Origin: an uncultured Ruminococcus sp.
GTDB lineage: Bacteria > Bacillota > Clostridia > Oscillospirales > Acutalibacteraceae
Length of the DNA: 64,000 bases
NCBI GenBank assembly: GCA_902762375.1
Contig: CACWNY010000027.1
Coordinates: forward strand, 11,400-75,399
Direction: 5' to 3'
Part shown: positions 1,331 to 59,842 of the stretch, piece by piece
Position numbering within the stretch: position 1 is the first letter of the stretch
How the letters are laid out: each line of letters begins with the position of its first letter
Made by a program: the position numbers and the translations under genes
Notes under the pieces: generated by a model
Told to the model about the DNA's origin: nothing
The model's input: the letters and a program-made list of their open reading frames with translations, nothing else
The model's database searches: none

Positions 1331-1506
1331 TTTCTACCTGAGCGGTTGAATATCAGGTAATTATTGTAAAAATCTGCTTACGCAGATTTTGTTTTGAATT
1401 TTTATCTGTTAAAGGGCTTCGCCCTTTAAAATCCCACAAGGGGCTTTGCCCCTTGACCCCACAAGCCTTTGAAAAGGCTTGACCGAAACTTTTAATTGTC
1501 ATAGCT
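1331..1506 (-). repeat. modular palindromic element (MPE) locus 1, monomer T-E-D-C-B-A
   Basis: TTTCTACCTGAGCGGTTGAA terminus. Hairpins: E AAAATCTGC..GCAGATTTT, D TAAAGGGC-TTC-GCCCTTTA, C CAAGGGGC-TTT-GCCCCTTG, B CAAGCCTTT-GAAA-AGGCTTG. A end CTTTTAATTGTCATAGC. Confidence 0.9.
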
Positions 1507-3336: not shown

Positions 3337-3340
3337 TCAT

Positions 3341-3484
3341 CTGTGCGGTTGGAATGATTTTCTCATCGTATAGCTGTGACAATTAAAAGTTTTGTCCACT
3401 TTTTCAAAAGTGGTGGGGTCAAGGGGCAAAGCCCCTTGTGGGATTTTTAAGTTGACAGTAACTATCTGGCTTTCAACCGCACAG
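3341..3484 (+). repeat. MPE locus 2, internally deleted monomer with both terminal inverted repeats
   Basis: Left CTGTGCGGTTGGAA and right TTTCAACCGCACAG are inverted with 1 mismatch. A, B(CCAC/GTGG) and C are present. D and E are deleted at TTTTTAAG|TTGACAG. Starts 5 nt after the ABC ATPase stop. Confidence 0.88.
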
Positions 3485-3500
3485 ATAGACAACTTTTAAT

Positions 3501-3523
3501 CAGATTTGCTTTTCGCAAATCTG
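3501..3523. repeat. orphan E-type hairpin
   Basis: CAGATTTGC-TTTTC-GCAAATCTG, 17 nt after locus 2. Confidence 0.6.
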
Positions 3524-5371: not shown

Positions 5372-5636
5372 TTTAAGGGCTGTCGCCCTTAAAAATCCCA
5401 CCCACTTTTCCCCAAAAAGTGGACAAAAAACTTTTATGGTTTTGGAAATGATTATCTGACTTTCAGCTATGACAACTGAAAGTTTTTGTCGAACTTTTTT
5501 CAAAAAGTTCGTGGGGTCAAGGGGCAATGCCCCTTGTGGGATTTTAAAGGGCAACGCCCTTTAACGAATAAAAATTCAAAACAAAATTTGCGTATGCAAA
5601 TTTTGACAATAATTACTTTCGTTTCGACCGCTCAGG
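5346..5636. repeat. MPE locus 3, head-to-head dimer (G-D-B-A | A-B-C-D-E-T)
   Basis: Left arm TCGGGGAGTTCCTCCACGAACCCCTGATTTAAGGGCTGTCGCCCTTAA..CCCACTTTTCCCCAAAAAGTGGAC. Right arm GCTATGACAACTGAAAGTTTTTGTCGAAC..GTTCG, C, D, E, then TTTCGACCGCTCAGG. Confidence 0.9.
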
Positions 5637-6141: not shown

Positions 6142-6236
6142 TCGGGGAGTTCCTCCCCGAACCCCTGATTTAAGGGCTGTCGCCCTTAAAAATCCCACCC
6201 ACTTTTTTGAAAAAAAGTGGACAAAAAACTTTTAAT
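6142..6236 (-). repeat. MPE locus 4, half element G-D-B-A
   Basis: Near-identical to the left arm of locus 3: TCGGGGAGTTCCTCCCCGAACCCCTGATTTAAGGGCTGTCGCCCTTAAAAATCCCACCCACTTTT.... Confidence 0.9.
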
Positions 6237-9735: not shown

Positions 9736-9785
9736 ACGGTATTTCTATAGGACTTTATGACCTTTGGTTTTAACTTGGAATTTTT

Positions 9786-10159
9786 GGGATTTTTAAGGGT
9801 GTTGCCCTTAAAAATCCCATGAGGCATATTATCCCTCAATCCCACGAACTTTTCATAGCTCACTTCGTCCGGAAGTCTTTATCTAAGTTTTAGCTATGAC
9901 AATTAAAAGTTTTTTGTCCACTTTTTTTCAAAAAAGTGGGCAGGGTTAAGGGGCGGCAGCCCCTTAGCAGGATTTTTAAGGGCGGCAGCCCTTAAACACA
10001 TCAAAATTCAAACAAAATTTGCGTAAGCAAATTTTGACAGTAACTATCTCTCTTTCAACCGCACAATTGGAAAGTTTTTTGTCCACTTTTGAGGGAAAAG
10101 TGGGCAGGGTCAAGGGGCGACAGCCTCTTGTAGGATTTTAAAGGGCAAAGCCCTTTAAA
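9786..10159. repeat. MPE locus 5, degenerate reverse arm + full forward element + tandem partial forward element
   Basis: Reverse arm has D TTAAGGGTGTTGCCCTTAA with decayed C and B, then linker CTCACTTCGTCCGGAAG..TATCTAAG. The full A-B-C-D-E-T copy ends at TTTCAACCGCACAA (10066). A second A-B-C-D copy runs to 10159. Confidence 0.88.
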
Positions 10160-10273
10160 AAGAACAAAAAACAGAAAATTACTTGTAATGATTTGTATGG
10201 TATGTTAAAATAAACAGCGATGGTCATAAAATGATTGTCAGAAAAGAATACAAACAGACAAAGGTGAATTTTT

Positions 10274-12403: not shown

Positions 12404-12423
12404 TTTTCAAAAAATTTATCTAT

Positions 12424-12615
12424 CTGTGCGGTTGAAAATTAAATCGTTATTGTCAAAATTTGCTAACGCAAATTTTGGTTTGATTTTCAGGAGTTTAAGG
12501 GCTTCGCCCTTAAAAATCCCATCAGGGGCTTTGCCCCTGAACCCCACGAACTTTTTGAAAAAAGTTCGACAAAAACTTTTAATTGTCATAATAATCTCAA
12601 CTGTTCAGGTAGAAA
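12424..12615 (-). repeat. MPE locus 6, full monomer with both termini
   Basis: Left CTGTGCGGTTGAAA, then E, D, C (TCAGGGGC..GCCCCTGA), B (CGAAC..GTTCG), A, then right TCAACTGTTCAGGTAGAAA. Lies between the rnhA stop and the ldh RBS. Confidence 0.9.
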
Positions 12616-15719: not shown

Positions 15720-15941
15720 TTTCCACCTGAGCAGTTGGCATTATTCTAAAGTGCATAATTATAGAAAAGCAACCTGTAGCTATGACAATTAAAAGTTTTG
15801 TCCACTTTTTCAAAAGTGGTGGGGTCAAGGGGCAAAGCCCCTTTTGGGATTTTTAAGGGCAAAGCCCTTAAACTCCCAAAAATCAAATCAAAATTTGCAT
15901 ATGCAAATTTTGACAATAATTACTTGCGTTTCAACCACTCA
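15720..15941 (+). repeat. MPE locus 7, full monomer
   Basis: Left TTTCCACCTGAGCAGTTGG, a 40-nt spacer, A-B-C-D-E, then right TTTCAACCACTCA. Lies between the 80-aa VYGPP gene and the 130-aa ORF. Confidence 0.9.
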
Positions 15942-15968
15942 TTTTAAAAATTTCAGGAGGAATTTGCT

Positions 15969-17970: not shown

Positions 17971-18180
17971 TCCCACCTGAAACGGTGACAACCAAAAGTT
18001 TTCCAACTGTGCAGTTGAAAGTCAAATAGTTACTGTCAAAATTTGCTCACGCAAATTTTGTTTGAAATTTTGAGAAGTTTAAGGGCTTCGCCCTTAAAAA
18101 TCCCACAAGGGGCTTTGCCCCTTGACCCCACCACTTTTGAAAAAGTGGACAAAACTTTTAATTGTCATAGCTATCATAGC
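17971..18180 (-). repeat. MPE locus 8, monomer with duplicated terminus
   Basis: TCCCACCTGAAACGGTGA plus CCAACTGTGCAGTTGAAA termini, then E-D-C-B-A. The end is duplicated: GTCATAGCTATCATAGC. Confidence 0.88.
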
Positions 18181-22654: not shown

Positions 22655-22673
22655 AACATAGCATAAAAAACAA

Positions 22674-22718
22674 AAAACACCTGATGATTTTTAAGAAATC
22701 ATCAGGTGTTTTCTTTTT
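22674..22718 (+). terminator. intrinsic terminator after the Big_2 gene
   Basis: ACACCTGATGATTT-loop-AAATCATCAGGTGT followed by TTTCTTTTT. Confidence 0.85.
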
Positions 22719-22742
22719 AAGGGCGTTTATAGATTGTCAAAT

Positions 22743-22900
22743 CAGCGGTTGGAATGATATTTTCATCGTATAGCTATGACAATTAAAAGTTTTTGTCCAC
22801 TTTTTTCAAAAAGTGGTGGGGTTCAGGGGCAAAGCCCCTGATGGGATTTTTAAGGGCAAAGCCCTTAAACTCCCCAAAGGCAAAGCCCTTAAACTCCCAA
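22743..22900 (+). repeat. MPE locus 9, monomer lacking E, with a D-region micro-duplication
   Basis: CAGCGGTTGGAATGAT terminus, then A-B-C-D. GGCAAAGCCCTTAAACTCCC is repeated twice. Confidence 0.85.
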
Positions 22901-22937
22901 AATTTTGTCAAAAGTTAAGGACATTGCCTTTTGAGAG

Positions 22938-23543: not shown

Positions 23544-23547
23544 AACT

Positions 23548-24420
23548 TCACCCTTTCAGACTGTCAAAATTTGCTGACGCAAATTTTGAGTTGATTTTTG
23601 GGAGTTTAAGGGCTTCGCCCTTAAAAATCCCACAAGGGGCTTTGCCCCTTGACCCCACAAGCCTTTGAAAAGGCTTGACCGAAACTTTTAAGTGGGTGTA
23701 CAGCAGATATTCTTCCGTACAGCGGTTCAATAGGCTTAACTTTTCAGGCGGTAAACTGAAATTAAAAAGTTTATTATATTCGCAGTAAATACAATGTCGT
23801 AATGCTGTTGTAACGCTTTTTCCTGTAAAAATTGCATATTCTTTTATTTCGGAGATACAATTACCACAAATAAGTTTTCCGCTTTTGGGGAGGAAATACA
23901 TTTCCTCTTGTTCGTAAGCGTTGCACTGACAACAACATACCAAATCAGGCATATATCCGCTGAGTACCATTAACTGTAATTCTACAACTGATTTTATCAG
24001 CGGTGCTGGACGCTTATTTGTATCCAGCATATATAGGGCGTTGAGTATCAATCGAAGATAGCTTTCTGCTTCCGTTTCCTGTGGTGCAAGATAACGGGCA
24101 AGTTCACAGAAATATTCCGCCAACGACATCTTGACAATATCTGTTCTCAAATGAGCAAATATCTTTTCACTTACAGCGTCATCAATTATGTACGCTTCCC
24201 GACGCTTATATAAAGAAAGCTGTGCATAACACAACAGTCGGGTAGCTTGTCCTTTGGTGCTTTTCAGACTTTTGCAGTTCTTGACAAATGCTCTGATAAC
24301 ACCAAGTTTTCTTGTCAGAACGGTAACCAGTCGGTCTTTTTCTCCTACACTCTGTTCACCGATAATCAGTCCGTCAGTTTCTATCTTCAAACTATTCACC
24401 TTTGTCTTTTTGCGTATCAT
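23548..24420 (-). CDS. recO: DNA repair protein RecO, C-terminus replaced or extended by repeat-element sequence
   Basis: RecO N-terminal OB region (GLIIGEQSVGEKDRLVTVLTRKLGVIRAF) and Zn-finger CCQC...CGNC. The last ~45 aa (VSVKPFQRLVGSRGKAPCGIFKGEALKLPKINSKFASANFDSLKG) are encoded by repeat locus 23560..23692. Confidence 0.85.
   Translation of the reverse strand: MIRKKTKVNSLKIETDGLIIGEQSVGEKDRLVTVLTRKLGVIRAFVKNCKSLKSTKGQATRLLCYAQLSLYKRREAYIIDDAVSEKIFAHLRTDIVKMSLAEYFCELARYLAPQETEAESYLRLILNALYMLDTNKRPAPLIKSVVELQLMVLSGYMPDLVCCCQCNAYEQEEMYFLPKSGKLICGNCISEIKEYAIFTGKSVTTALRHCIYCEYNKLFNFSLPPEKLSLLNRCTEEYLLYTHLKVSVKPFQRLVGSRGKAPCGIFKGEALKLPKINSKFASANFDSLKG
23560..23692 (-). repeat. MPE locus 10, E-D-C-B-A, lying entirely inside the recO ORF 3' end
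   Basis: CAAAATTTGCTGACGCAAATTTTG, TTAAGGGCTTCGCCCTTAA, CAAGGGGCTTTGCCCCTTG, CAAGCCTTTGAAAAGGCTTG, GAAACTTTTAAG. Confidence 0.9.
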
Positions 24421-24541
24421 TATGAAAATATTCGGGAAAATCTGCCTGTAATTCTTCTTTTTCTTTCAGAGCGGTATAATGCAGATAATCCAGAATGTTT
24501 CCTGTTTCAGAAAATGTCGCCCACGCTTCATAAAGTTCCAT
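24392..24541 (-). CDS. yqzL: YqzL-like small protein (49 aa)
   Basis: Hand-translated: MELYEAWATFSETGNILDYLHYTALKEKEELQADFPEYFHNDTQKDKGE*. The W..FS.TGNI..YL motif and the position just upstream of recO match Bacillus yqzL. Overlaps the recO start by 29 nt. Too short for the ORF track. Confidence 0.55.
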   Translation of the reverse strand: MELYEAWATFSETGNILDYLHYTALKEKEELQADFPEYFHNDTQKDKGE

Positions 24542-24609
24542 AATTACACTCACACCTCTTTCAAATTTGCTAAAGATAGTATGAGCTGTATAACCATAAT
24601 TATAGATAT

Positions 24610-24744
24610 GTCAAAATTTGCTTTTGCAAATTTTGGATTTTTTTGGGGAGTTAAAGGGCTTCCGCCCTTTAAAATCCTGACAAGGGGTTTCACCCCTTGT
24701 CCCCACAAACTTTTTGAAAAAAGTTTGACCAAAAACTTTTAATT
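24610..24744 (-). repeat. MPE locus 11, E-D-C-B-A
   Basis: The B stem is the CAAAC/GTTTG variant. C is CAAGGGGTTTCACCCCTTG. Confidence 0.9.
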
Positions 24745-24826
24745 TTTCACAACTGAATGTCATCATTGAACAATAATCTCATATAACAAAAATCAGATAA
24801 CAGAAATTCTGTTATCTGAAAAAACA

Positions 24827-25522
24827 TCAGCAACCTTCCTGACGGAAAACTACCGCAAAAGTGCCGAAAATGATTTTAATATCTACCCACATATTTCTTT
24901 CCATTATGTATTTTCTGTCAAGAGCCATCCAGCCTTCAAAAGAAATCGAATTTCTGTCAGGTTCAATCTGCCAGTAGCAGGTAAGACCAGGAGTAACCAG
25001 TAATCTTAATTTATGGGTTTCGTTATACTCTGCCACTTCTTTCGGGAGAGCGGGTCTGGGACCTACAAAAGACATATCTCCTTTGAGAATATTCAGTAAC
25101 TGAGGGAGTTCGTCCAGACTGGTTGAACGCAAAAATTTACCGATTTTCGTAATTCTGGGGTCATTCTTGATTTTAAATACAGGGCCGTCCATTTCATTCT
25201 GTTTCTGTAAAGCCTGTAACTTCTGTTCAGCGTCGGGACACATTGTTCGGAATTTGTATACTCTGAATGACTTTCCATGTTTTCCACACCGTTCCTGTGT
25301 AAAGAAAGGGGAATGTCTGTCTTCCAGAAAAATCAGCAACGAAATTATCAGAAAAACAGGAACCAGCACAATTAAAGCAATAAACGACATCACAATATCA
25401 AACAGTCTTTTGCAAAAATTATAAAAAGGCTTTTCCTGAAATGTAAAACTATCAACATTTTCCACAAGTTGGCTATCTCTGACAAGCGTTTCTTTACTCA
25501 TTATTGTATACTCCACATTCAT
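24827..25522 (-). CDS. undecaprenyl-phosphate sugar phosphotransferase (WbaP/CpsE/EpsL family)
   Basis: DELPQLLNILKGDMSFVGPRP and one N-terminal TM helix. Start set to ATG 25522 after GGAGGGA. Confidence 0.85.
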   Translation of the reverse strand: MNVEYTIMSKETLVRDSQLVENVDSFTFQEKPFYNFCKRLFDIVMSFIALIVLVPVFLIISLLIFLEDRHSPFFTQERCGKHGKSFRVYKFRTMCPDAEQKLQALQKQNEMDGPVFKIKNDPRITKIGKFLRSTSLDELPQLLNILKGDMSFVGPRPALPKEVAEYNETHKLRLLVTPGLTCYWQIEPDRNSISFEGWMALDRKYIMERNMWVDIKIIFGTFAVVFRQEGC

Positions 25523-25556
25523 ACAAATTCCCTCCTGTCTTGAACACAAACAGGTT

Positions 25557-26315
25557 CTAAATCCAGAAGTTCAGAAACTTTTTGGGTTTCTTCACTACAC
25601 TTAAATCAATATCTTCTCCATTGAACACTTTTTCGCTGTTATCTGTCAGCCACTGTACATAATCCTCTCCGAATGCTCTACGGACAACTTCATATCCTTC
25701 TTTTACATTAGGAATGCGATGTTCGTCTGAGTGGCTGTCACTACATATAAAATGCACTAAATCCCACTTCAGATATTTCATTGCTGTCCTTTTACGGACA
25801 CTGTTCTTTATCAGCGTTTCTGCATTGATATGTGCCAGACAACCGTCCATAACCAAATCATACAACAAGGTAGGGTCTTCCGCAAAATAACCGTACCGTT
25901 CCACATGAGCCAGTATAGGGGTATATCCCATACCTAAAAGACTGGTCAATGCTTCTTTAATTCCATACGGTTTCATTTTTGTAGAAAACTCTATCAGCAT
26001 ATAGTCGCTACCCTCAAAACAGAGTGGCTGTAAATCTTCCAGTTCCAGTAGTTTCAGTGAAAAGTAGACTTCTGACCCTGTTTTCAGCGTCATATCCAGT
26101 TTCTGACATTCTTCATTCGACAATAATATCTGCTTGCTTTCTTCTCTTTTCTGAAGAAATTCTTCATAGGTCATTTCGTCAATCTTAAAATGCGGTGTGA
26201 ACATGACTTTATCCACACCCTGTTCTTTCTGCATTTTAAGCATATTCAAAGAAATTTCAAGATTTTTTGACCCATCATCTATTCCAGGCAATATATGACA
26301 ATGTAAGTCAATCAT
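25557..26315 (-). CDS. tyrosine-protein phosphatase, PHP family (CpsB/YwqE-like)
   Basis: MIDLHCHILPGIDDGS..., DSHS.... Confidence 0.87.
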   Translation of the reverse strand: MIDLHCHILPGIDDGSKNLEISLNMLKMQKEQGVDKVMFTPHFKIDEMTYEEFLQKREESKQILLSNEECQKLDMTLKTGSEVYFSLKLLELEDLQPLCFEGSDYMLIEFSTKMKPYGIKEALTSLLGMGYTPILAHVERYGYFAEDPTLLYDLVMDGCLAHINAETLIKNSVRKRTAMKYLKWDLVHFICSDSHSDEHRIPNVKEGYEVVRRAFGEDYVQWLTDNSEKVFNGEDIDLSVVKKPKKFLNFWI

Positions 26316-27798: not shown

Positions 27799-27831
27799 CT
27801 AAATTCCCCTTTTATTTTTATCTTTTACGAA

Positions 27832-27860
27832 ATTATACAATATTCCGTCAGAACAGTCAA
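27832..27860 (-). promoter_or_regulatory. promoter for the cpsC/D/B/transferase operon
   Basis: Minus strand TTGACT, 17 nt, TATAAT. Lies 34 nt upstream of the start at 27798. Confidence 0.5.
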
Positions 27861-28541: not shown

Positions 28542-28560
28542 ACCTCTTTTCCGTTAATTT

Positions 28561-28834
28561 TGCAGAGGTTTCACCCCTGCACCCCTGAGTTAAGGGCTTT
28601 GCCCTTAACAATCCCCACAAACTTTTTGAAAAAAGTTTGACCAAAAACTTTTAAGGCTCACTTTATTCGGAATGTTTATCTGAGTGTCAGCTATGACAAT
28701 TAAAGTTTTTTGTCCACTTTTTTTCAAAAAAGTGGTGGGGTCAAGGGGCAAAGCCCCTTGTCAGGATTTTTAAGGGCGGAAGCCCTTAAACTCCCTCCAA
28801 AAAATCTAAAATTTGCGAAAGCAAATTTTGACAT
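28561..28834. repeat. MPE locus 12, head-to-head dimer
   Basis: Left arm has a G-like GCAGAGGTTTCACCCCTGC, then D and B(CAAAC). Linker GGCTCACTTTATTCGGAATGTTTATCTGAG. Right arm is A-B(CCAC)-C-D-E. Confidence 0.9.
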
Positions 28835-28917
28835 AGATACAAATGTGACAAACTCTCTGTTACCTCAAGTCTGCCACATTTAATCATACACCTTTATCAA
28901 TAAATAATCAATAAATA

Positions 28918-30911: not shown

Positions 30912-31002
30912 AACTAAAGTTTAGGTCAAGCCTTTTTAAAGGCTTGTAGGGGTCAAGGGGACAAAGTCCCCTTGTGGGATTGTTAAGGGCAATGCCCTTA
31001 AC
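30912..31002 (+). repeat. MPE locus 13, partial A-B-C-D inside the thrS 5' UTR
   Basis: GGTCAAGCCTTTTTAAAGGCTTG, CAAGGGGACAAAGTCCCCTTG, TTAAGGGCAATGCCCTTAA. Sits between the T-box terminator and the thrS start. Confidence 0.88.
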
Positions 31003-31298: not shown

Positions 31299-31439
31299 TC
31301 AAAATTTGCTTTCGCAAATTTTGTTTTGTATTTTGGGAGTTTAAGGGCTTCGCCCTTAAAAATCCTGCTAAGGGGCTGCCGCCCCTTAACCCCGCCCACT
31401 TTTTTGAAAAAAAGTGGACAAAAAACTTTTAATTGTCAC
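31299..31439 (-). repeat. MPE locus 14, E-D-C-B-A
   Basis: C is the CTAAGGGGCTGCCGCCCCTTAA variant and B is CCAC/GTGG. Lies 13 nt upstream of the thrS promoter -35. Confidence 0.9.
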
Positions 31440-33804: not shown

Positions 33805-33950
33805 AGCTATGAAAATTAAAAGTTTTGTCCACTTTTTCAAAAGTGGTGGGGTCAAGGGGCAAAGCCCCTTGTGGGATTTTAAAGGGCGAAGCCCTTTAAT
33901 GGATAAAAACTCAAAACAAAATCTGCGTAAGCAGATTTTGACAATCATTT
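33805..33950 (+). repeat. MPE locus 15, A-B-C-D-E
   Basis: AGCTATGAAAATTAAAAGTTTTGTCCAC.., with E as CAAAATCTGCGTAAGCAGATTTTG. Lies between the convergent spoIID-like and queF genes. Confidence 0.9.
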
Positions 33951-35168: not shown

Positions 35169-35364
35169 GTCGGGGACGCTGTCCCCGAACCCCTGTTTAA
35201 GGGCTACCGCCCTTAAAAATCCTGTCCACTTTTTTGAAAAAAAGTGGACAATAAACAATCCGAACGAAGTGAGCCAGAAAAGTTTTTGTCAAACTTTTTT
35301 CAAAAAGTTTGTGGGGTTCAGGGGCAACGCCCCTGATGAAATTGTTAAGGGCAAAGCCCTTAAC
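35169..35364. repeat. MPE locus 16, dimer inside the que operon (between folE and queC)
   Basis: Left arm is G TCGGGGACGCTGTCCCCGA, D and B(CCAC). The linker is in inverted orientation (ATCCGAACGAAGTGAGCC). Right arm is A-B(CAAAC)-C-D. Confidence 0.9.
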
Positions 35365-35384
35365 AGAAACAATACCTTTTAATT

Positions 35385-37233: not shown

Positions 37234-37447
37234 TTTCTACCTGAGCGGTTGAAAATCAGGTAATGATGGTCAAAATCTGCTTACGCAGATTTTGTTTTGA
37301 ATTTTTATCCATTAAAGGGCTTCGCCCTTTAAAATCCTGACAAGGGGACTTTGTCCCCTTGACCCCTACCACTTTTGAAAAAGTGGACAAAACTTTTAAT
37401 TGTCATAGCTAGAGGTTGTTTTTCATCATTACGGATTTCTGAAATAT
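37234..37447 (-). repeat. MPE locus 17, monomer T-E-D-C-B-A plus long A-side extension
   Basis: Starts with TTTCTACCTGAGCGGTTGAAA. The extension GCTAGAGGTTGTTTTTCATCATTACGGATTTCTGAAATATT parallels locus 20 and runs up to the hydrolase stop codon. Confidence 0.88.
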
Positions 37448-40952: not shown

Positions 40953-41227
40953 GTTAAGGGCGTTGCCTCTGTTAAGGGCGTTGCCCTTAACAATCCCATG
41001 AGGGGCTTTGCCCCTCAACCCCACGAACTTTTTAAAAAAAGTTCGACAAAAACTTTCAAGGCTCACTTCGTTCGGAAATCTTTATTTAAAGTGTTGGCGG
41101 TGAAACTTAAAAGTTTTTTGTCCACTTTTTTTCAAAAAAGTGGGCAGGGTTAAGGGGCGGCAGCCCCTTAGCAGGATTTTTAAAGGCGGCAGCCCTTAAA
41201 TCAGGAGTTCGGGGAGGAACTCCCCGA
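40953..41227. repeat. MPE locus 18, dimer (D-D-C-B-A | A-B-C-D-G)
   Basis: Left arm has a duplicated D and B(CGAAC). Linker GGCTCACTTCGTTCGGAAATC. Right arm has B(CCAC), C, D, and the G hairpin TTCGGGGAGGAACTCCCCGAA, which abuts the rplL terminator. Confidence 0.9.
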
Positions 41228-41262
41228 AAAAAAAGAAGTCGGTAAATTGCTTTACCGACACT
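41227..41262 (-). terminator. intrinsic terminator after rplL
   Basis: Minus strand GTCGGTAAA-GCAA-TTTACCGAC followed by TTCTTTTTTTT. Confidence 0.8.
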
Positions 41263-45208: not shown

Positions 45209-45499
45209 GTTAAGGGCGTTGCCCTTAACAATCCCATGAGGGGCGTTGCCCCTGAACCCCACAAACTTTTTGAAAAAAGTTTGACAAAAACTTTCAAGGC
45301 TCACTGCGTTCGGATTTTCCGCTAAGGCTTAGCTGTGACACTTAAAAGTTTTTTGTCCACTTTTTTTCAAAAAAGTGGGCAGGGTTAAGGGGCGGCAGCC
45401 CCTTAGCAGGATTTTTAAGGGCGGCAGCCCTTAAACTTAAAGGGTTATTAAGGGGCGGCAGCCCCTTAGCAGGATTTTTAAGGGCGACAGCCCTTAAAC
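45209..45499. repeat. MPE locus 19, dimer with 63-bp tandem duplication of C-D
   Basis: Left arm is D-C-B(CAAAC). Linker GGCTCACTGCGTTCGGATTTTCC. Right arm is A-B(CCAC)-C-D-C-D. It abuts the stop codon of the HMGL-like gene. Confidence 0.9.
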
Positions 45500-46607: not shown

Positions 46608-46842
46608 TTTCTACCTGAGAGTTAAAAATCAAATAGTTATTGTCAAAATTTGCTTTGCAAATTTTGTTTTGAATTTTTATCTGTTAAAGGGCTTCGCCCT
46701 TTAAAATCCCACAAGGGGTTTCACCCCTTGACCCCACCACTTTTTGAAAAAAGTGGACAAAAACTTTTAATTGTCATAGCTAAAGGTTGTTTTTCTCTAA
46801 TCAGGCATTTCAGAAAATTATTTCAACCGTTACAGGTGGAAA
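46608..46842 (-). repeat. MPE locus 20, complete 235-bp monomer with ~20-bp imperfect terminal inverted repeats
   Basis: Left TTTCTACCTGAGAGTTAAAAA and right TTTCAACCGTTACAGGTGGAAA. The internal order is E-D-C-B-A followed by a 50-nt A-side extension. Confidence 0.9.
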
Positions 46843-46943: not shown

Positions 46944-49307
46944 ATGACAGATTACGAAAAAGGACTGTCCGAACAAGAAGTCCGAAAGCGTTTGGAAAAC
47001 GGTCAATATAACAAAGCGGATAATTTTGAAACCAAGTCATTTTTACAGATTTTAAAAGATAATGTCTGTACGCTGTTCAATGCGATGAATTTATTTTTAG
47101 CGATAGCGGTTATCAGTGTAGGGTCATATAAAAACATTATGTTTATGATGGTAGTGATTATCAATGCTCTGATAGGTACTGTTCAGGAACTGCGGGCAAA
47201 AAAAACTATCGAAAAACTTTCCATTGTCGGCAAACAGAAAATCAAAGTCTTGCGTGACGGCAAGATTATCGAAGTCGATACAGAAGAACTGGTACTTGAC
47301 GATATATTTTTTCTGGAAAATGGCAATCAGGTTCCTACAGACTGTGTTGTGATAGAGGGCAGTTGTGAAGTCAATGAGTCCTTACTGACGGGAGAATCTG
47401 ATGCTGTGTTCAAAAATCCCGCTGACAAATTAATTTCAGGAAGTTTCATTGTCAGCGGAAAATGTAAGGTACAGGCGGAAAAAGTCGGTGGGGATAACTA
47501 TGCTTCTCATATTTTCAAAGGAGCAAGATATGTCAAAAAGGTCAATTCCCAGATTATGCAATCGCTTAATCTGATTATTAAAACAATGTCCATTGTCATT
47601 CTCCCTGTAGGAACACTGCTTTTTTTAAGACAGTATTTTGTCAGTAACGATATCCGACAATCTGTGATAGGTTCAGTCGGAGCATTGATTGGTATGATAC
47701 CCGAAGGTCTGATACTCCTGACAAGTACGGTTCTGGCGGTGGGGGTTATCCGTCTGTCAAAACAGAAAGTTCTCACACAGGAAATGCTTTGTATCGAAAC
47801 TTTAGCAAGAGTAGATGTCTTATGCCTGGATAAAACAGGTACGATTACCGAAGGTTGTATGGAAGTCAGCAAAATTATTCCTACAAATAACAGTACATCT
47901 GAACAACTGGAAAAGGCTTTATATGCACTTGGTCAGTGTTCACAGGATAATAACCCTACTATCAATGCAATCCGTGAGAAATTTTCAGGAAATACTACGC
48001 TTACACCTCAAAATATTATGCCTTTTTCGTCCGAAAAAAAATGGTCGGGAATTTATTTCGGTGAGGATATCGGCACTTATCTTATCGGTGCAGAAGAATT
48101 TTTATTGGGTGGTAAAAACAGTGAAATTCAGAAGATTATCAGAGATATTCCCAAAGGCTATCGTGTGATTACTGTAGCTTATTCGGAAAACAATTTTCAA
48201 GAAAGAAATCTGCCCGAAAATGTCGTACCGCTTGGTATAGTTGTGCTGAGGGATAAAATTCGTAAGGAAGCAAAAGCAACACTGGAATATTTTGACAAAC
48301 AAGGTGTGACAATTAAAGTGATTTCGGGGGATAATCCCGAAACGGTTTCCGCTGTAGCAGAACAGGCTGGGGTCAAAAACTATGATAAAGTAGTTGACGC
48401 AACTACCTTACAGACAGAAGAAGATATCTTTGACGCTGTAGAAAAATACACCGTATTCGGCAGGGTAACACCGAAACAGAAATTACAGATGGTGAAAGCC
48501 TTACAGAAACACTCCCACACAGTAGCAATGACAGGTGACGGTGTTAATGATGTACTGGCACTAAAAGAGGCAGATTGTTCCATTGCGATGGCAAGTGGTA
48601 GTGAGTCGGCAAGGTGTGTTGCCCAACTGGTTTTGCTCGATTCCAATTTTGCCTCCATGCCGAAAGTTCTGGCCGAAGGCAGACGCTCTATCAATAATAT
48701 CCAGCGTTCCGCCTCACTGTTTCTGGTCAAGACCATATTTTCTACAATACTTGCTGTTATTTTTGTGTTCTGGGGTCAACAGTACCCTTTCTCTCCCATT
48801 CAGATGACTTTGGTCAATGCGTTCTGTATCGGTTTCCCGTCATTCGTGCTGGCTCTTGAACCCAATGAAGATATGGTCAAAGGTAATTTCCTGATGAACA
48901 TTCTCAACAAAGCCGTTCCAGGAGGTATAACGGTTGTATTTGCGGTTGTCATGGTGAAAATTCTGGAAATATTCTGTCAGTTCGATGCAGAATTTTCTTC
49001 TACTCTCGCCGTTTCACTGACTGCCTTTACAGGATTGATGGTCATTTTCAAAACAAGTCTGCCGTTTAATCTTATCCGCAGTCTGATGTTTGCCATTTCG
49101 GTAAGCGGTATGGTATTCGGAATTACTTACTCCAAATTCGTTATCCGAAAATTTATAGGTATTCATAACTTTTTCGGATTTGTGGATATGTCACAGACTT
49201 TTTTAGTTTATTTTCTGATTGGTGCAGGCGTAAGTATAGGGATTTTTTTGACGGTTACTTTCCTTCGAAAAAAATTATTTGACAGGTTTAAGGGCTGCCA
49301 CCCTTAA
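46944..49307 (+). CDS. cation-transporting P-type ATPase
   Basis: TGES, CLDKTGTITEG, MTGDGVNDVLALKEADCSIAM. Start at 46944 or 46917. The last codons FKGCHP* lie in the D hairpin of a repeat element. Confidence 0.87.
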   Translation: MTDYEKGLSEQEVRKRLENGQYNKADNFETKSFLQILKDNVCTLFNAMNLFLAIAVISVGSYKNIMFMMVVIINALIGTVQELRAKKTIEKLSIVGKQKIKVLRDGKIIEVDTEELVLDDIFFLENGNQVPTDCVVIEGSCEVNESLLTGESDAVFKNPADKLISGSFIVSGKCKVQAEKVGGDNYASHIFKGARYVKKVNSQIMQSLNLIIKTMSIVILPVGTLLFLRQYFVSNDIRQSVIGSVGALIGMIPEGLILLTSTVLAVGVIRLSKQKVLTQEMLCIETLARVDVLCLDKTGTITEGCMEVSKIIPTNNSTSEQLEKALYALGQCSQDNNPTINAIREKFSGNTTLTPQNIMPFSSEKKWSGIYFGEDIGTYLIGAEEFLLGGKNSEIQKIIRDIPKGYRVITVAYSENNFQERNLPENVVPLGIVVLRDKIRKEAKATLEYFDKQGVTIKVISGDNPETVSAVAEQAGVKNYDKVVDATTLQTEEDIFDAVEKYTVFGRVTPKQKLQMVKALQKHSHTVAMTGDGVNDVLALKEADCSIAMASGSESARCVAQLVLLDSNFASMPKVLAEGRRSINNIQRSASLFLVKTIFSTILAVIFVFWGQQYPFSPIQMTLVNAFCIGFPSFVLALEPNEDMVKGNFLMNILNKAVPGGITVVFAVVMVKILEIFCQFDAEFSSTLAVSLTAFTGLMVIFKTSLPFNLIRSLMFAISVSGMVFGITYSKFVIRKFIGIHNFFGFVDMSQTFLVYFLIGAGVSIGIFLTVTFLRKKLFDRFKGCHP

Positions 49308-49590
49308 AAATCCTGCTAAGGGGCTGCCGCCCCTTAACCCCGCCCACTTTTCCCCCAAAAGTGGACAAAAAACTTTTATGGCTCACTTCGTTCGGATTGC
49401 TATCTCAAAGTATAGCGATGACAATTAAAAGTTTTTGTCGAACTTTTTTCAAAAAGTTCGTGGGGTTCAGGGGCAAAGCCCCTGATGGGATTTTTAAGGG
49501 CAAAGCCCGATTTTTAAGGGCAAAGCCCTTAAACTCCCCGAAATTCCAAACAAAATTTGCGTAAGCAAATTTTGACATTATCTGTTCTGA
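49287..49590. repeat. MPE locus 21, head-to-head dimer
   Basis: Left arm is D-C-B(CCAC). Linker GGCTCACTTCGTTCGGATTGCTATCTCAAAG. Right arm is A-B(CGAAC)-C-D with a 20-bp duplication, then E. The left D hairpin contains the ATPase stop codon. Confidence 0.9.
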
Positions 49591-51523: not shown

Positions 51524-51689
51524 CCAACTGTGCGGTTAAAAATCCAATAGTTACTGTCAAAATTTGCTTACGCAAATTTTGTTTGGATTTGGGGAGTTTA
51601 AGGGCTTTGCCCTTAAAAATCCCACAAGGGGCTTTGCCCCTTGACCCCACAAGCCTTTGAAAAGGCTTGACCGAAACTTTTAATTGTCA
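51524..51689 (-). repeat. MPE locus 22, T-E-D-C-B-A
   Basis: CCAACTGTGCGGTTAAAAA terminus. B is the CAAGCC/GGCTTG variant. Confidence 0.9.
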
Positions 51690-51878: not shown

Positions 51879-53072
51879 TTGAAAAAATTTGTCAGATTGT
51901 TTACCACAGTGACAACATTCTTTTGTGCAATAATTTTCACGGCAGGTACTGTACTGGGAAATATCTTGCCGTCTGATTATTATACTGACCGTCTGGGGTC
52001 ACAATCTCTTGCAGTATACGGTGTCACTCTCAATACCTACAAAAACGAAAATCAGGAAATTTCGGGAAAGTTGATGTTCGGGAATATTTTTCCGATTAAA
52101 ACCGTCAATATTCAGCTCAAACCCAACGAAACCGTTATTCCCTGTGGAAACCCGTTTGGTATACGCCTGTTTACAGAAGGTGTGATGGTAGTCAAAACGG
52201 AAAAAATGACCGTAAACGGTAAAACCTATCACCCTGCAAAAGAGGCTGGGATAGAAACAGGTGATGTAATTACTTATGCCAACGGAAAAAAAATCACCTG
52301 TACAGAAGATTTACCTGTAGCGGTCAACGAAAGCAAAGGAAAACCCGTCACATTACGGATAGTCCGCAACCATAAGACCATAGCCAAAACTGTTATGCCT
52401 GTCAAGACCAACGAAAACTATAAAATCGGAATATGGGTGCGTGACAGTTCGGCTGGCATAGGTACAATGACTTTTTATCACAGCGAAAGTCATGCTTTTG
52501 GTGGATTAGGTCACGGGATTTGCGATACCGATACAGGACAGCTCATGCCATTGGCACAGGGAGAAGTCACAGGTGCAGAAATCGAAAGTATCACCAAAGC
52601 TAAATCAGGTGTAGCAGGAACACTTAACGGACATCACTGTGAAAATTTATGTAAAGGTTATGTAATAAGCAACTGTGAAGCAGGTATTTTCGGTTATATA
52701 CAGACTTCCCCTGTCAACCATCAACCATTGCCCATCGCTTACAAACAGCAACTTCAGACAGGAAAAGCAAAAATAATCACCACTATCGACAATACCTCTC
52801 CAAAATATTACGATGTAGAAATATGTTCCATCAACTATAACGAAAGCAACAAAACCAAAAATATCGTCATTCAGGTCACAGACAAAGAACTTTTACGCAA
52901 GACCAACGGTATTGTACAAGGTATGAGTGGAAGTCCCATTATACAGAACAATCGTTTAGTAGGAGCAGTCACTCATGTATTTGTCAACGAACCCTCCAAA
53001 GGTTACGGTATTTTTGCCGAAAACATGATTTCCGCTTTCAACACCGAAAGCCTTAAATCTTCGCCGTGTTAA
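51879..53072 (+). CDS. spoIVB: SpoIVB peptidase (S55)
   Basis: PDZ region (GIETGDVITYANGKKI) and S55 catalytic region GIVQGMSGSPIIQNNRLVGAVTHVF. TTG start follows GGAGGTG. The stop TAA lies in the D hairpin of a repeat element. Confidence 0.87.
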   Translation: MKKFVRLFTTVTTFFCAIIFTAGTVLGNILPSDYYTDRLGSQSLAVYGVTLNTYKNENQEISGKLMFGNIFPIKTVNIQLKPNETVIPCGNPFGIRLFTEGVMVVKTEKMTVNGKTYHPAKEAGIETGDVITYANGKKITCTEDLPVAVNESKGKPVTLRIVRNHKTIAKTVMPVKTNENYKIGIWVRDSSAGIGTMTFYHSESHAFGGLGHGICDTDTGQLMPLAQGEVTGAEIESITKAKSGVAGTLNGHHCENLCKGYVISNCEAGIFGYIQTSPVNHQPLPIAYKQQLQTGKAKIITTIDNTSPKYYDVEICSINYNESNKTKNIVIQVTDKELLRKTNGIVQGMSGSPIIQNNRLVGAVTHVFVNEPSKGYGIFAENMISAFNTESLKSSPC

Positions 53073-53295
53073 GGGCGTTGCCCTTAACAGTTCCATCAGG
53101 GGCGTTGCCCCTGAACCCCACGAACTTGCCCTCAAAAGTTCGACAAAAACTTTCAAGGTTTACTCCATTCGGATTGTTTATCTAAGTATCAGCTATGACA
53201 ATTAAAAGTTTTTTGTCCACTTTTTTTCAAAAAAGTGGGCGGGGTTAAGGGGTGGCAACCCCTTAGCAGGATTTTTAAGGGCAAAGCCCTTAAAT
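53068..53295. repeat. MPE locus 23, head-to-head dimer
   Basis: Left arm is D (containing the spoIVB stop codon), C, and B(CGAAC with loop GCCCTC). Linker GGTTTACTCCATTCGGATTGTTTATCTAAG. Right arm is A-B(CCAC)-C-D. Confidence 0.9.
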
Positions 53296-55954: not shown

Positions 55955-56092
55955 TATCAAAATTTGCTTACGCAAATTTTGTTTAATTTTGGGTAGTTTA
56001 AGGGCTTTGCCCTTAAAAATCCCACAAGGGGCTTTGCCCCTTGACCCCACAAGCCTTTGAAAAGGCTTGACCGAAACTTTTAATTGTCATAG
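55955..56092 (-). repeat. MPE locus 24, E-D-C-B-A
   Basis: Nearly identical to locus 22 over E-D-C-B(CAAGCC)-A. Confidence 0.9.
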
Positions 56093-57930: not shown

Positions 57931-58222
57931 TTCGGGGACGCTGTCCCCGAACCCCCTGTTTAAGGGCTGCCGCCCTTAAAAATCCTGCCCACTTTTTTGA
58001 AAAAAAGTGGACAAAAAACTTTTATGGTTTTGTAGCGTTCGGATTGTTATCTCAAGGTATAGCTATGACAATTAAAAGTTTTTGTCGAACTTTTGAGGGC
58101 AAGTTCGTGGGGTTCAGGGGCAAAGCCCCTGATGGGATTTTTAAGGGCGAAGCCCTTAAACTCATCAAAATCCAAACAAAATTTGCGTCAGCAAATTTTG
58201 ACAATGACTATTTGATTTTCAA
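57931..58222. repeat. MPE locus 25, dimer between FHA-rodA and pbp
   Basis: Left arm is G TTCGGGGACGCTGTCCCCGAA, D and B(CCAC). The linker is a variant, GTAGCGTTCGGATTGTTATCTCAAGG. Right arm is A-B(CGAAC with loop GAGGGC)-C-D-E plus a decayed terminus. Confidence 0.9.
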
Positions 58223-59613: not shown

Positions 59614-59842
59614 TTTAAGGGCTGCCACCCTTAAAAATCCTGCTAAGGGGCTGCCGCCCCTTAACCCTGCCCACTTTTTTTGAAAAAAAGTGGACAAAAA
59701 ACTTTTATGGTTCACTTCGTTCAGATTGTTTATCACACATTGGGCTATGACAATTAAAAGTTTTTGTCGAACTTTTTTCAAAAAGTTCGTGGGGTTCAGG
59801 GGCAAAGCCCCTGATGGGATTTTTAAGGGCAACGCCCTTAAA
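59614..59842. repeat. MPE locus 26, dimer between pbp and cobB
   Basis: Starts directly after the pbp TAG stop. Left arm D-C-B(CCAC) is almost identical to the left arm of locus 21. Right arm is A-B(CGAAC)-C-D. Confidence 0.9.

What the first reader, a model, noticed from the sequence alone, without database searches (positions are those of the whole stretch)
24610..24744. Compensatory stem substitutions define subfamilies: the hairpin-forming ability is conserved, not the sequence
The B hairpin occurs in four stem versions, and both halves change together. They are CCAC/GTGG (loci 2, 7, 8, 9, 14, 15, 17, 20), CGAAC/GTTCG (6, 3b, 21b, 25b, 26b, 18a, 23a), CAAGCC/GGCTTG (1, 10, 13, 22, 24) and CAAAC/GTTTG (11, 12a, 16b, 19a). 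C varies the same way (CAAGGGGC..GCCCCTTG, TCAGGGGC..GCCCCTGA, TTAAGGGGC..GCCCCTTA, TGAGGGGC..GCCCCTCA). D varies (TTAAGGGC vs TAAAGGGC) and E varies (AAATTTGC vs AAATCTGC), and loops differ freely (AAA, GAA, GGCA, TGTC, AAC). B and C variants are linked; for example CAAGCC goes with CAAGGGGCTTTGCCCCTTG. This pattern indicates selection on secondary structure in ssDNA or RNA.
Basis: seen in the sequence. Interest (0 to 1): 0.75.

Follow-up and report, generated by a model that had tools for sequence, protein, structure and literature searches.

The report
Mobile mosaic repeat of DNA hairpins
The region is one copy of a small mobile DNA repeat, built from four short perfect hairpins, that fills most gaps between genes in an uncultured rumen Ruminococcus-like bacterium. 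Its hairpin stems do change on both sides together, as in the classic REP/BIME and MITE repeats of other bacteria.

Summary
Window 24612-24727 holds four perfect hairpins (E, D, C, B). About 36 related cassettes lie in the 64 kb: 126 perfect hairpins against about 5 in shuffles.

Formal covariation is strong. In 150 copies from the window and related genomes, 98.8% of stem cells are paired and 23 of 26 pairs change on both sides (0 of 500 shuffles). It is not only clonal amplification:
- Orthologous copies in a species about 8% diverged show 3 stem pairs changed, all compensated, and none uncompensated.
- D, C and B variants reassort freely, yet the two arms of a hairpin are almost never split.

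The element is a mosaic, non-autonomous mobile repeat. Some copies have terminal inverted repeats and 8-bp target duplications, and related genomes have empty sites, including one for this copy. It resembles MITEs and BIMEs. No Rfam family matches and no transposase was found.

The constraint is on Watson-Crick pairing on both strands. Whether it acts on DNA or RNA is unresolved, and non-selective arm-to-arm correction is not excluded.

The D-C hairpin pair with its linker also occurs in a Nitrospirota genome. C-type arrays occur in small mobilizable plasmids next to mob genes.

Verdict: real, a new member of a known kind, of moderate interest.

The parts
24570..24611 (+). Degenerate left-end (F / terminal inverted repeat) remnant of the finding's copy
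   Evidence: It aligns with the F module CTGAGCGGTTGAAA..TAATTATTGTCA of other copies, keeping only TGAGC..TAATTAT..TGTCA. This is an inference.
24612..24635 (+). Hairpin E: CAAAATTTGC.tttt.GCAAATTTTG, followed by a T-rich linker
   Evidence: Flagged as weakly terminator-like.
24651..24672 (+). Hairpin D: TTAAAGGGC.ttcc.GCCCTTTAA, followed by the linker AATCCT
24679..24701 (+). Hairpin C: GACAAGGGGT.ttc.ACCCCTTGTC. The stem is 2 bp longer than the family norm. It is followed by the linker CCCA.
24706..24727 (+). Hairpin B: CAAACTTTT.tgaa.AAAAGTTTG
24728..24744 (+). Conserved tail ACCAAAAACTTTTAATT (family consensus ACAAAAACTTTTAATTGTCATAGCTA)
1369..1481 (+). E-D-C-B cassette
3337..3523 (-). 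TIR-bounded short copy (C-B) with an adjacent E hairpin; nested
5372..5605 (.). Head-to-head composite: D-B, then about 67 nt, then B-C-D-E on the other strand
6142..6220 (+). X-D-B cassette (X = TCGGGGAG.ttc.CTCCCCGA)
9785..9879 (+). A D palindrome extended to 15 bp (TGGGATTTTTAAGGG..CCCTTAAAAATCCCA) plus a degenerate C and B
9918..10160 (-). Two tandem cassettes (E-D-C-B and D-C-B)
12420..12612 (+). Full TIR-bounded copy (193 bp) carrying E-D-C-B, with flanking 8-mers AAATTTAT / AAATCTAT
15723..15946 (-). Full TIR-bounded copy (224 bp) carrying E-D-C-B, with flanking AAAATTT(C) repeats
18037..18148 (+). E-D-C-B cassette
22797..22869 (-). D-C-B cassette, downstream of the canonical terminator at 22674-22712
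23564..23677 (+). E-D-C-B cassette lying inside the 3' end of the recO reading frame
28589..28829 (.). Head-to-head composite; orthologous copy in RUG11850 (L062)
30927..31002 (-). D-C-B cassette
31300..31417 (+). E-D-C-B cassette
33829..33940 (-). E-D-C-B cassette
35170..35365 (.). Head-to-head composite; orthologous copy in RUG11850 (L064), where B is CGAAC/GTTCG instead of CAAAC/GTTTG
37271..37386 (+). E-D-C-B cassette. The RUG11850 ortholog carries an element of another subfamily in the opposite orientation.
40970..41228 (.). Head-to-head composite, preceded by the T module at 40916-40947
45209..45498 (.). Head-to-head composite with a D-C duplication. The C hairpin in its left half (45209-45283) is TGAGGGGC..GCCCCTGA, with a G.G mismatch.
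46644..46756 (+). E-D-C-B cassette
49287..49574 (.). Head-to-head composite. The stop codon of gene 46917-49307 lies in the D hairpin.
51558..51669 (+). E-D-C-B cassette
53067..53294 (.). Head-to-head composite
55958..56069 (+). E-D-C-B cassette, preceded by the T module at 55914-55940
57931..58200 (.). Head-to-head composite (X-D-B facing B-C-D-E)
59614..59842 (.). Head-to-head composite

Best explanation
Shown:
- The region is one copy of a very abundant, non-coding, non-autonomous mobile repeat in the chromosome of an uncultured rumen Ruminococcus-like bacterium (Acutalibacteraceae).
- The repeat is a mosaic of short perfect palindromes (E, D, C, B, plus the optional modules X, T and F) in a fixed order, joined by conserved C-rich linkers.
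- Some copies are bounded by terminal inverted repeats of about 18-45 bp and by 8-bp AT-rich target duplications. Others are head-to-head composites.
- Single hairpin-plus-linker modules are gained, lost and exchanged.
- Copies are present or absent at orthologous sites in related genomes.
- Stems are kept Watson-Crick while their sequence changes, both between subfamilies and in place at orthologous loci.

Inferred:
- The TIR-bounded copies are moved in trans by a DDE-type transposase that I did not find.
- Hairpin formation itself is what is preserved. Elements whose palindromes can extrude as hairpins or cruciforms multiply or persist, and broken ones are lost or repaired.
- The constraint is symmetric between strands. 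I therefore place it most simply on DNA, meaning single-stranded or cruciform DNA during mobilisation or replication.
- As a by-product, any transcript crossing a copy in either direction folds into a very stable four-hairpin block, as with REP/BIME, Correia and BOX elements.
For: Abundance and non-randomness:
- 126 perfect hairpins against 5.2 in shuffles.
- The D-C pattern occurs 24 times against 0 expected.
- 38-40 model or HMM hits in 64 kb.

Covariation:
- Across genomes: 98.8% paired against 84.4%; 23 of 26 pairs changed on both sides against 12.2; 53 extra pair types against 40.1; score 0.341 against 0.106; 0 of 500 shuffles; slid controls at most 0.06.
- In the window alone: 17 of 26 against 8.5, score 0.334 against 0.103.

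Change in place:
- Against RUG11850, E changed from AAAA/TTTT to GGAA/TTCC and B from CAAAC/GTTTG to CGAAC/GTTCG, with no uncompensated change in 9 intact hairpins. Other intergenic DNA differs by 9.1% and coding DNA by 8.2%.
- Low-count compensated E variants occur in RUG11850: CCC/GGG, CC/GG and CGG/CCG.
- Further complementary variants occur in L072 and L158.

Reassortment without split arms.

Mobility:
- TIRs and 8-bp flanking repeats.
- Filled against empty sites: L034/L010 and L040/L026.
- The finding's own copy is absent upstream of recO in L159 and L158 and present in the same-species contig L160.
- A one-module indel between L033 and L025.

Strand symmetry and DNA level:
- No wobble excess: G.T 13 against A.C 17.
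- No consistent orientation relative to genes.
- This copy and several others lie beyond canonical intrinsic terminators.
- Related hairpin arrays sit near oriT and mob genes of small plasmids, where DNA is single-stranded.
Against: - No transposase, RAYT or other partner protein was found. 29 window proteins are housekeeping, and a motif screen of 993 ORFs was empty.
- A transposase that binds TIRs has no obvious need for internal hairpins.
- Rare variants are almost as frequent in stems (0.89%) as in loops and linkers (1.08%). Recent copies therefore show little stem-specific purging.
- When oriented by local transcription, transition mismatches are G.U 15 against A.C 7. This trend toward RNA-level tolerance is not significant.
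- The orthologous sample is small (9 hairpins).
- Palindromes extended into their linkers suggest a mutational rather than selective origin of perfect pairing.
Confidence: 0.5

Rival explanations
1. Non-selective palindrome maintenance. A change in one arm is either removed or copied onto the other arm by intrastrand template switching at the hairpin. Alternatively, whole hairpin modules are overwritten by short-patch gene conversion from the many other copies. Complementarity is then a by-product of mutation and repair, not of function.
For: - Stems have grown into the normally unpaired linker: a 15-bp stem at 9785-9819, a 12-bp stem at 35223-35250 and a 10-bp C stem in the finding's copy.
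- The orthologous E change involves 4 substitutions in 22 nt at only about 8% divergence. That is easier as one or two templated events than as four independent ones.
- The orthologous B switch is between two abundant subfamily types, which fits conversion.
- Transversion-type pair flips (AT to TA, CG to GC) are as common as transition types.
- Loops are at the physical minimum of 3-4 nt.
- Rare-variant rates in stems and in unpaired sites are similar.
Against: - It does not explain why linkers, G/C cores and module order are conserved across genera and phyla.
- It does not explain why hairpin modules at orthologous sites diverge less than neighbouring intergenic DNA (5.4% against 9.1%).
- Conversion alone cannot create new complementary variants.
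- Subfamilies with enlarged loops (B with ccccc or gccctcaa) persist without being made fully palindromic again.
Confidence: 0.25
2. The selected structure is RNA. The cassettes are transcribed in 3' untranslated or intercistronic regions and act as terminators, 3'-end stabilisers or insulators in both directions. Strict Watson-Crick pairing at the family level follows because copies insert in both orientations.
For: - Many copies start at or within a few bases of a stop codon, and some supply the stop codon itself (5372, 49287, 53067, 59614).
- E (sense strand) and C (antisense strand) are followed by T-rich runs and score as terminator-like. Twelve terminator-like sites were found against 2.0 expected in 22600-25000.
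- The T module is a textbook bidirectional terminator shape, and it sits at the centre of composites in related genomes.
- Composites never lie between divergent genes.
- In the transcript sense, G.U 15 against A.C 7.
- The RNA fold is -54.5 kcal/mol.
Against: - The G.U excess is not significant, and some mismatches come from the same copy.
- The finding's own copy and others (22797, 40970, 55958) lie downstream of separate canonical terminators, so they may be little transcribed.
- Single cassettes also sit between divergent genes (15802, 46644, 51558).
- Only 2 of 886 cells in the window are G.U.
- B and D have no U-tail.
Confidence: 0.2
3. There is no structural constraint. The variants are a few master copies that happened to be palindromic and were clonally amplified.
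For: - Clear subfamilies with many near-identical copies.
- Copies differ by only about 1% in private variants.
- In the window alone, the count of extra pair types is not above shuffles: 26 against 27.3.
Against: - Every master, and every variant in other genomes, is itself perfectly complementary despite differing at up to 3 pairs per stem.
- Type-level measures are significant across genomes.
- Compensated changes occur in place at orthologous sites.
- Reassortment of modules breaks the clonal picture.
Confidence: 0.03
4. The palindromes are double-stranded binding sites for dimeric DNA-binding proteins (for example nucleoid proteins or a regulator), and no hairpin is ever formed.
For: - Perfect two-fold symmetry.
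- Conserved G/C cores.
- Independence of orientation.
Against: - A sequence-specific dimer would not tolerate the many alternative stem sequences at the same position.
- Spacers of 3-4 nt and four different palindromes in a fixed order with polar loops fit stem-loops better than operators.
Confidence: 0.04

Closest known systems
REP / BIME elements of enterobacteria and pseudomonads (palindromic units, REPINs)
   Same: - Short extragenic palindromes present in hundreds of copies.
- Combined in mosaics with other short motifs and in alternating orientation.
- Stems conserved through compensatory changes.
- Often located just after stop codons.
The comparison rests on established knowledge of REP/BIME. 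For RAYT and REPIN see PMC5581495.
   Different: - No GTAG-type 5' tetranucleotide.
- Four to seven different palindromes in a fixed order instead of one unit type.
- Perfect rather than imperfect stems.
- Some copies have TIRs and 8-bp target duplications.
- No RAYT was found.
- The host is a Clostridia lineage.
Bacterial MITEs (Correia/NEMIS of Neisseria, RUP of Streptococcus pneumoniae, ERIC/IRU, bcr1 of Bacillus cereus)
   Same: - 150-300 bp and non-coding.
- Terminal inverted repeats and target-site duplication.
- Insertion polymorphism between close relatives.
- Intergenic location and strong folding.
   Different: - The interior is an ordered array of independent perfect hairpins that reassort as modules.
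- Many copies lack TIRs and end in a hairpin.
- No cognate insertion sequence was identified.
- The density of about one per 1.8 kb is unusually high.
BOX elements of Streptococcus pneumoniae
   Same: - Found in Firmicutes.
- Modular build with a variable number of internal modules.
- Predicted stable secondary structure.
- Unknown mobilising enzyme.
   Different: - No sequence relationship was tested or seen.
- BOX modules are 45-60 bp and are not individual perfect palindromes.
Hairpin arrays beside oriT/mob in small rolling-circle or mobilizable plasmids (pTX14-2 family, pRGF00221, pPvu1)
   Same: Tandem GGGG(C)-triloop-(G)CCCC hairpins, each followed by ACCCCA, are 84-91% identical over about 50 nt to tandem C modules of the family.
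   Different: - One array per plasmid rather than a dispersed repeat.
- The function of the plasmid arrays (single-strand origin, part of oriT, or a hitch-hiking repeat) is not known to me and was not tested.
- The D module was not found in plasmids.

Membership tests
MITE (miniature inverted-repeat transposable element) | Small (under about 300 bp), non-coding, multi-copy | tested here: met
   Copies are 150-290 bp, with about 36 in 64 kb. ORFs crossing them are read-through of neighbouring genes.
MITE (miniature inverted-repeat transposable element) | Terminal inverted repeats | tested here: met
   Five copies are bounded by CTACCTGAGCGGTTGAAA-like inverted ends. Many other copies lack one or both ends.
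MITE (miniature inverted-repeat transposable element) | Target-site duplication | tested here: met
   The 8-bp flanking repeats match 8/8 (L071), 7/8 (window 12420-12612), 8/8 after a 1-nt shift (window 15723-15946), 6/8 (L034) and 4/8 in one nested copy. The AGAAAATTA repeat at the L040/L026 filled and empty site fits too. Caveat: the AT-rich target resembles the outer end of the element.
MITE (miniature inverted-repeat transposable element) | Presence/absence polymorphism at orthologous sites | tested here: met
   L034 against L010, L040 against L026, and window 24.6 kb against L159 and L158.
MITE (miniature inverted-repeat transposable element) | A cognate autonomous insertion sequence with the same ends | tested here: inconclusive
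   None was seen in the window or in L004-L072 (about 0.45 Mb). One inverted pair of ends 1.9 kb apart (L020) encloses a two-component system, not a transposase. Whole genomes were not available.
REP / REPIN-RAYT system | Short extragenic palindromes, highly repeated | tested here: met
REP / REPIN-RAYT system | A conserved GTAG-like tetranucleotide at the 5' foot of the hairpin | tested here: not met
   The hairpin feet are flanked by A-rich or CCC(C)A linkers. No GTAG appears in the consensus.
REP / REPIN-RAYT system | A single-copy RAYT (Y1/HUH transposase) gene flanked by the repeats | tested here: inconclusive
   No ORF among 993 carries both HUH and YxxxNP motifs, and Pfam scans of 29 window proteins found none. 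Only a fraction of any genome was held, and the screen is crude.
REP / REPIN-RAYT system | Insertion without target-site duplication | tested here: not met
   The TIR-bounded copies have 8-bp duplications.
Any Rfam RNA family | A match to a curated covariance model | tested here: not met
   No gathering-level hits in the window. Only chance-level hits at E of 0.036 or higher in 57800-58400.
Integron attC array / CRISPR array | Regular alternation of repeats with cassettes or spacers, and associated integrase or cas genes | tested here: not met
   The repeats separate ordinary housekeeping genes and operons (ThrRS, RecO, LDH, GDH, queCF). Spacing is irregular, and no integrase or cas genes were found.

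The most novel reading that the evidence does not exclude
The D and C hairpins with their C-rich linkers may be members of an ancient, horizontally travelling class of single-stranded-DNA signals. They could be, for example, a lagging-strand priming (sso-like) site or a substrate of an HUH nuclease. Such signals would be carried by small mobilizable plasmids and would have been repeatedly captured and amplified in chromosomes of unrelated phyla (Clostridia of low and high GC, Nitrospirota). The rumen Ruminococcus lineage would then be one extreme bloom of a widespread system that has not been described.
Probability: 0.15. Interest if true: 0.75.

Novelty: new member of a known kind. Interest (0 to 1): 0.45.

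Why it matters
- It documents an undescribed repeat family that occupies roughly a quarter of the non-coding DNA of a rumen bacterium related to the starch degrader Ruminococcus bromii.
- The family visibly fragments metagenome assemblies of this group. Many contigs of the sister MAGs end inside a copy.
- It remodels gene ends. It extends recO and supplies stop codons for other genes.
- It differs between strains that share 98% identical proteins, so it is a practical strain marker and a source of regulatory variation.
- It offers a clean natural data set for asking whether perfect DNA palindromes are kept by selection or by self-templated repair. There are hundreds of young copies, orthologous old copies and reassorting modules.
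- The cross-phylum and plasmid occurrences of the same hairpin-plus-linker modules, if followed up, could reveal how such repeats spread.

Tried and rejected
- Rfam: gathering thresholds on the whole window and permissive thresholds on one composite gave nothing.
- tRNA and tmRNA scan: none.
- A metagenome scan seeded with the neighbouring flavodiiron protein returned 80 loci, but the protein is too conserved. 79 come from unrelated Clostridia and carry no element. They serve only as a negative control, and the scan did not give the orthologs I wanted.
- IMG/VR scan for the D-C pattern: 0 hits, so there is no sign of a phage vector.
- BLAST hits to 'Bacteriophage sp.' records looked like support for small ssDNA replicons. 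The one I inspected is a bacterial chromosomal fragment (ruvA, ruvC, xylulokinase), so I dropped the idea.
- The promoter idea for the B-side tail (TGGACA..TAGCTA): orientation relative to genes is inconsistent, so it was dropped.
- The candidate insertion sequence between inverted ends in L020 is a two-component system.
- The RAYT motif screen was empty.
- The 'rare double change' count on the multi-genome alignment is confounded by species-specific subfamilies and by module swaps, so I did not use it as evidence.
- Literature searches by keywords and by sequence strings found no description of this family.
- The D module was not found in plasmids.
- Integron and CRISPR readings were rejected on gene content and spacing.
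Full report
**1. What is at the coordinates**

Window 24612-24727 reads as four consecutive perfect hairpins:
- E: CAAAATTTGC.tttt.GCAAATTTTG
- D: TTAAAGGGC.ttcc.GCCCTTTAA
- C: GACAAGGGGT.ttc.ACCCCTTGTC
- B: CAAACTTTT.tgaa.AAAAGTTTG

They are followed by the conserved tail ACCAAAAACTTTTAATT. As single-stranded DNA the stretch folds at -40.4 kcal/mol (shuffles -16.5 +/- 2.8, z -8.5). The opposite strand as RNA folds at -54.5 kcal/mol (z -6.5).

The copy lies between a canonical intrinsic terminator of the upstream sugar-transferase gene (24819-24793 on the minus strand, with a T-run) and the start of recO at 24420.

**2. Is it more than chance?**

Yes. The window has 126 perfect hairpins with stems of at least 8 bp and loops of 3-5 nt. 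Dinucleotide shuffles give a mean of 5.2 and a maximum of 11. They group into 34 clusters, about 36 cassettes, covering 3.7 kb. That is 5.8% of the window and about 27% of its non-coding DNA.

A pattern spanning D, its linker and the start of C occurs 24 times, with 0 expected.

- Part of the 'free' loop variation is just the other strand. Once copies are oriented, the D and C loops are all T/C-rich.
- B-C linkage is partial.
- Linkers and G/C cores are strongly conserved.
- A few mismatched stems exist.

**3. Formal covariation**

I built a covariance model of D-C-B (87 positions, 26 pairs) from six gapless window copies. I searched the window plus 69 loci from related genomes, which gave 228 matches.

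On the best 150 matches:

| Measure | Observed | Shuffles |
|---|---|---|
| Stem cells paired | 98.8% | 84.4 +/- 0.3% |
| Pairs changed on both sides (of 26) | 23 | 12.2 +/- 1.2 |
| Extra pair types | 53 | 40.1 +/- 1.7 |
| Covariation score | 0.341 | 0.106 |

No shuffle out of 500 reached any of these values. Sliding the partners by 1-3 columns drops the score to 0.06 or less.

In the window alone: 98.4% paired, 17 of 26 pairs against 8.5 +/- 1.3, and score 0.334 against 0.103. The count of extra pair types is not significant there (26 against 27.3).

The alignments were fitted to the model, which favours the structure somewhat. The hairpins are also visible without any model.

**4. Is it only a few amplified master copies?**

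No, for four reasons.

(a) The two measures that count each pair type or position once are significant across genomes.

(b) Orthologous copies changed in place. The closest reference genome, the MAG 'Ruminococcus sp. RUG11850', matches window 25092-30616 at 92% and 35251-37244 at 90%.
- At the shared composite near 28.7 kb, the E stem is AAAATTTGC/GCAAATTTT in the window and GGAATTTGC/GCAAATTCC in RUG11850.
- At 35.3 kb, B is CAAAC/GTTTG against CGAAC/GTTCG, while C and D, loops included, are identical.
- Over these alignments, substitutions are 8.2% in coding DNA, 9.1% in other intergenic DNA and 5.4% in element modules.
- In nine intact hairpins, three pairs changed, all compensated, and none was uncompensated.
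- A decayed hairpin next to them does show single uncompensated changes.

(c) More complementary variants appear in every further genome examined:
- CCAAAGGC/GCCTTTGG, GGGT/ACCC and TGAAC/GTTCA in L072.
- CCC/GGG, CC/GG and CGG/CCG at the foot of E in RUG11850.
- GAGAATTTGC/GCAAATTCTC in L158.

(d) D, C and B variants occur in nearly all combinations, so neighbouring hairpins 6-9 nt apart reassort. The two arms of one hairpin, 3-4 nt apart, are split in only one clear case: TGAGGGGC..GCCCCTGA in the left half of the composite at 45209.

A caution: rare variants are almost as frequent in stems (0.89%) as in unpaired positions (1.08%). Among young copies there is therefore little sign of stem-specific purging.

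**5. DNA or RNA?**

In the orientation of the element, mismatches of the wobble type (G.T or T.G, 13) are no more common than A.C or C.A (17) or other types (18), among 3331 pair cells. Only 2 of 886 cells in the window are G.U.

Copies lie in both orientations relative to flanking genes, and in co-directional, convergent and divergent gaps. This strand symmetry fits a DNA-level constraint.

It would also arise under RNA-level selection on a family that inserts both ways. When I oriented the transition mismatches by the inferred local transcription direction, they split G.U 15 against A.C 7. That is a trend and is not significant, and several mismatches share a copy.

For an RNA role:
- E (sense) and C (antisense) are followed by T-rich runs.
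- A further module, T (AAAATGCCrTT..AAyGGCATTTT), has the shape of a bidirectional terminator.

Against an RNA role:
- This copy and several others lie beyond separate canonical terminators.

I leave the level unresolved and lean toward DNA.

**6. What the thing is**

Genes in the window are ordinary chromosomal genes: ThrRS, RecO, LDH, GDH, RNase H, queC/queF, capsule genes and a Big_2 surface protein.

The source is a rumen metagenome lineage. The ThrRS protein is found unchanged on an ENA rumen scaffold. The element pattern hits rumen 'Ruminococcus sp.' and Acutalibacteraceae MAGs.

Alignment with long flanks shows that the cassette extends into a conserved tail and, in many copies, into a left module F. 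Five copies (152-226 bp) are bounded by inverted ends resembling CTACCTGAGCGGTTGAAA. Their 8-bp flanking repeats match 8/8, 7/8, 8/8 after a 1-nt shift, 6/8 and 4/8.

Filled and empty orthologous sites exist:
- L034 against L010, and L040 against L026.
- The finding's own copy is absent between the same terminator hairpin and recO in L159 (RecO 81% identical).
- It is absent upstream of recO in L158 (77%).
- It is present in a same-species contig, L160 (98%).

Other forms and dynamics:
- Nine head-to-head composites have B facing B across about 75 nt.
- Cassettes may begin with a fifth hairpin, X.
- There are tandem D-C duplications.
- One extra hairpin-plus-linker module of 31 nt separates two orthologous loci (L033 against L025).
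- At window 37.3 kb the sister species carries an element of another subfamily in the opposite orientation.
- At the recO 3' end, two strains with 98% identical RecO carry different insertions.

Taken together, this is a mosaic, non-autonomous mobile repeat with features of both MITEs and BIMEs. No transposase or RAYT was found, but only a fraction of any genome was available.

**7. Distribution**

- Of 80 loci (about 0.9 Mb) from other Clostridia carrying a close homolog of a neighbouring gene, only the nearest (L072) has the element.
- IMG/VR has no match.
- The D-linker-C core also occurs in high-GC Clostridia MAGs (L025, L033).
- It occurs as several intergenic copies in two contigs of a 'Candidatus Magnetobacteriaceae' MAG. 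That contig's PurB has Nitrospirota best hits, so the contig is not a Clostridia contaminant.
- Tandem C-type hairpins, each followed by ACCCCA, are 84-91% identical over about 50 nt to arrays in small plasmids. In the Bacillus thuringiensis pTX14-2 family they lie upstream of mobV, about 70 nt from an oriT-like inverted repeat. In the 1.7-kb plasmid pRGF00221 they form a three-hairpin array. In Proteus pPvu1 a single imperfect hairpin lies 13 bp upstream of mobC.
- Whether those plasmid arrays are functional single-strand signals or hitch-hiking repeats is not known to me.

**8. How it most likely works**

Shown:
- The element is mobile, mosaic and highly abundant.
- Stems covary and are kept paired in place.
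- The constraint is Watson-Crick and strand-symmetric at the family level.

Inferred:
- Copies with TIRs are moved in trans by a DDE-type transposase.
- Hairpin formation is the preserved property, most simply in DNA.
- Transcripts crossing a copy are capped by a very stable hairpin block.

The main rivals are non-selective arm-to-arm correction or module conversion, supported by palindromes that have grown into their linkers (9785-9819, 35223-35250), and RNA-level function.

**9. Comparison and novelty**

The closest known kinds are REP/BIME, bacterial MITEs (Correia, RUP, ERIC, bcr1) and BOX. Compensatory conservation of stems in such repeats is long established, so the phenomenon is not new in kind.

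What appears undescribed, according to the library searches, is the following:
- the family itself;
- its ordered set of distinct perfect palindromes inside TIR-bounded units;
- its density of about one copy per 1.8 kb;
- the recurrence of its modules in other phyla and in plasmids.

I rate it a new member of a known kind, with interest 0.45.

Noticed in passing
window 23548-24420 (minus strand), overlapping the element at 23564-23677: The recO reading frame runs about 40 codons into an element copy, giving 290 aa against about 247-250 aa in homologs. A same-species contig (L160, RecO 98% identical) ends recO at a TAA inside a differently oriented D hairpin, giving 259 aa. The repeat therefore rewrites the C-terminus differently in different strains.
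   Followed up: partly
window 49287-49307, 53067-53072, 5369-5372, 59611-59614: Several genes end exactly at or inside the D hairpin, whose TTAA core gives a TAA stop on either strand. The gene at 46917-49307 takes its stop codon from the right arm of D.
   Followed up: partly
window 9785-9819 and 35223-35250: Family palindromes have been extended into the normally unpaired linker, giving stems of 15 bp and 12 bp. This looks like templated palindrome growth.
   Followed up: partly
L014 3925-4010 and 7129-7210 (Nitrospirota MAG): A B-like AT-rich hairpin sits inside the loop of a C hairpin, so hairpins are nested within hairpins. L158 likewise has a 24-nt insert in a C loop.
   Followed up: no
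L152 (pTX14-2) 590-690; L155 (pRGF00221) 441-520; L153 (pPvu1) 901-925: Arrays of GGGG(C)-triloop-(G)CCCC hairpins, each followed by ACCCCA, lie beside mob genes or an oriT-like repeat in small plasmids of Bacillus and Proteus, and in a 1.7-kb gut plasmid. They are about 84-91% identical to tandem C modules.
   Followed up: partly
L157 (GenBank MT838741, 'Bacteriophage sp.', unverified): This 'phage' record encodes RuvA, RuvC and a xylulokinase, and carries a three-hairpin C array between ruvA and ruvC. It looks like a bacterial chromosomal fragment, not a phage.
   Followed up: partly
L004-L071 (contigs of MAGs RUG11850 and RUG11803): Many contigs begin or end within a few bases of an element copy, and close relatives of recO sit on contigs of 1-1.8 kb. 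The repeat evidently breaks short-read assemblies of this lineage.
   Followed up: no
window 40916-40947, 55914-55940; L023, L027, L030, L031, L044, L048, L070: There is a further shared palindrome, AAAATGCCrTT..AAyGGCATTTT, shaped like a bidirectional intrinsic terminator. It lies next to cassettes in the window and at the centre of D-to-D composites in related MAGs.
   Followed up: partly
window about 19000-24000: Cumulative GC skew peaks here, and gene orientation switches from mostly plus to mostly minus at about 22.7 kb. This would fit converging replication forks or a rearrangement. Single cassettes are 3 plus and 5 minus before this point and 7 plus and 2 minus after it, which is not significant.
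   Followed up: no
window 18524-22654: A 1376-aa protein with about 15 Big_2 immunoglobulin-like repeats, probably a surface protein, flanked by element copies.
   Followed up: no
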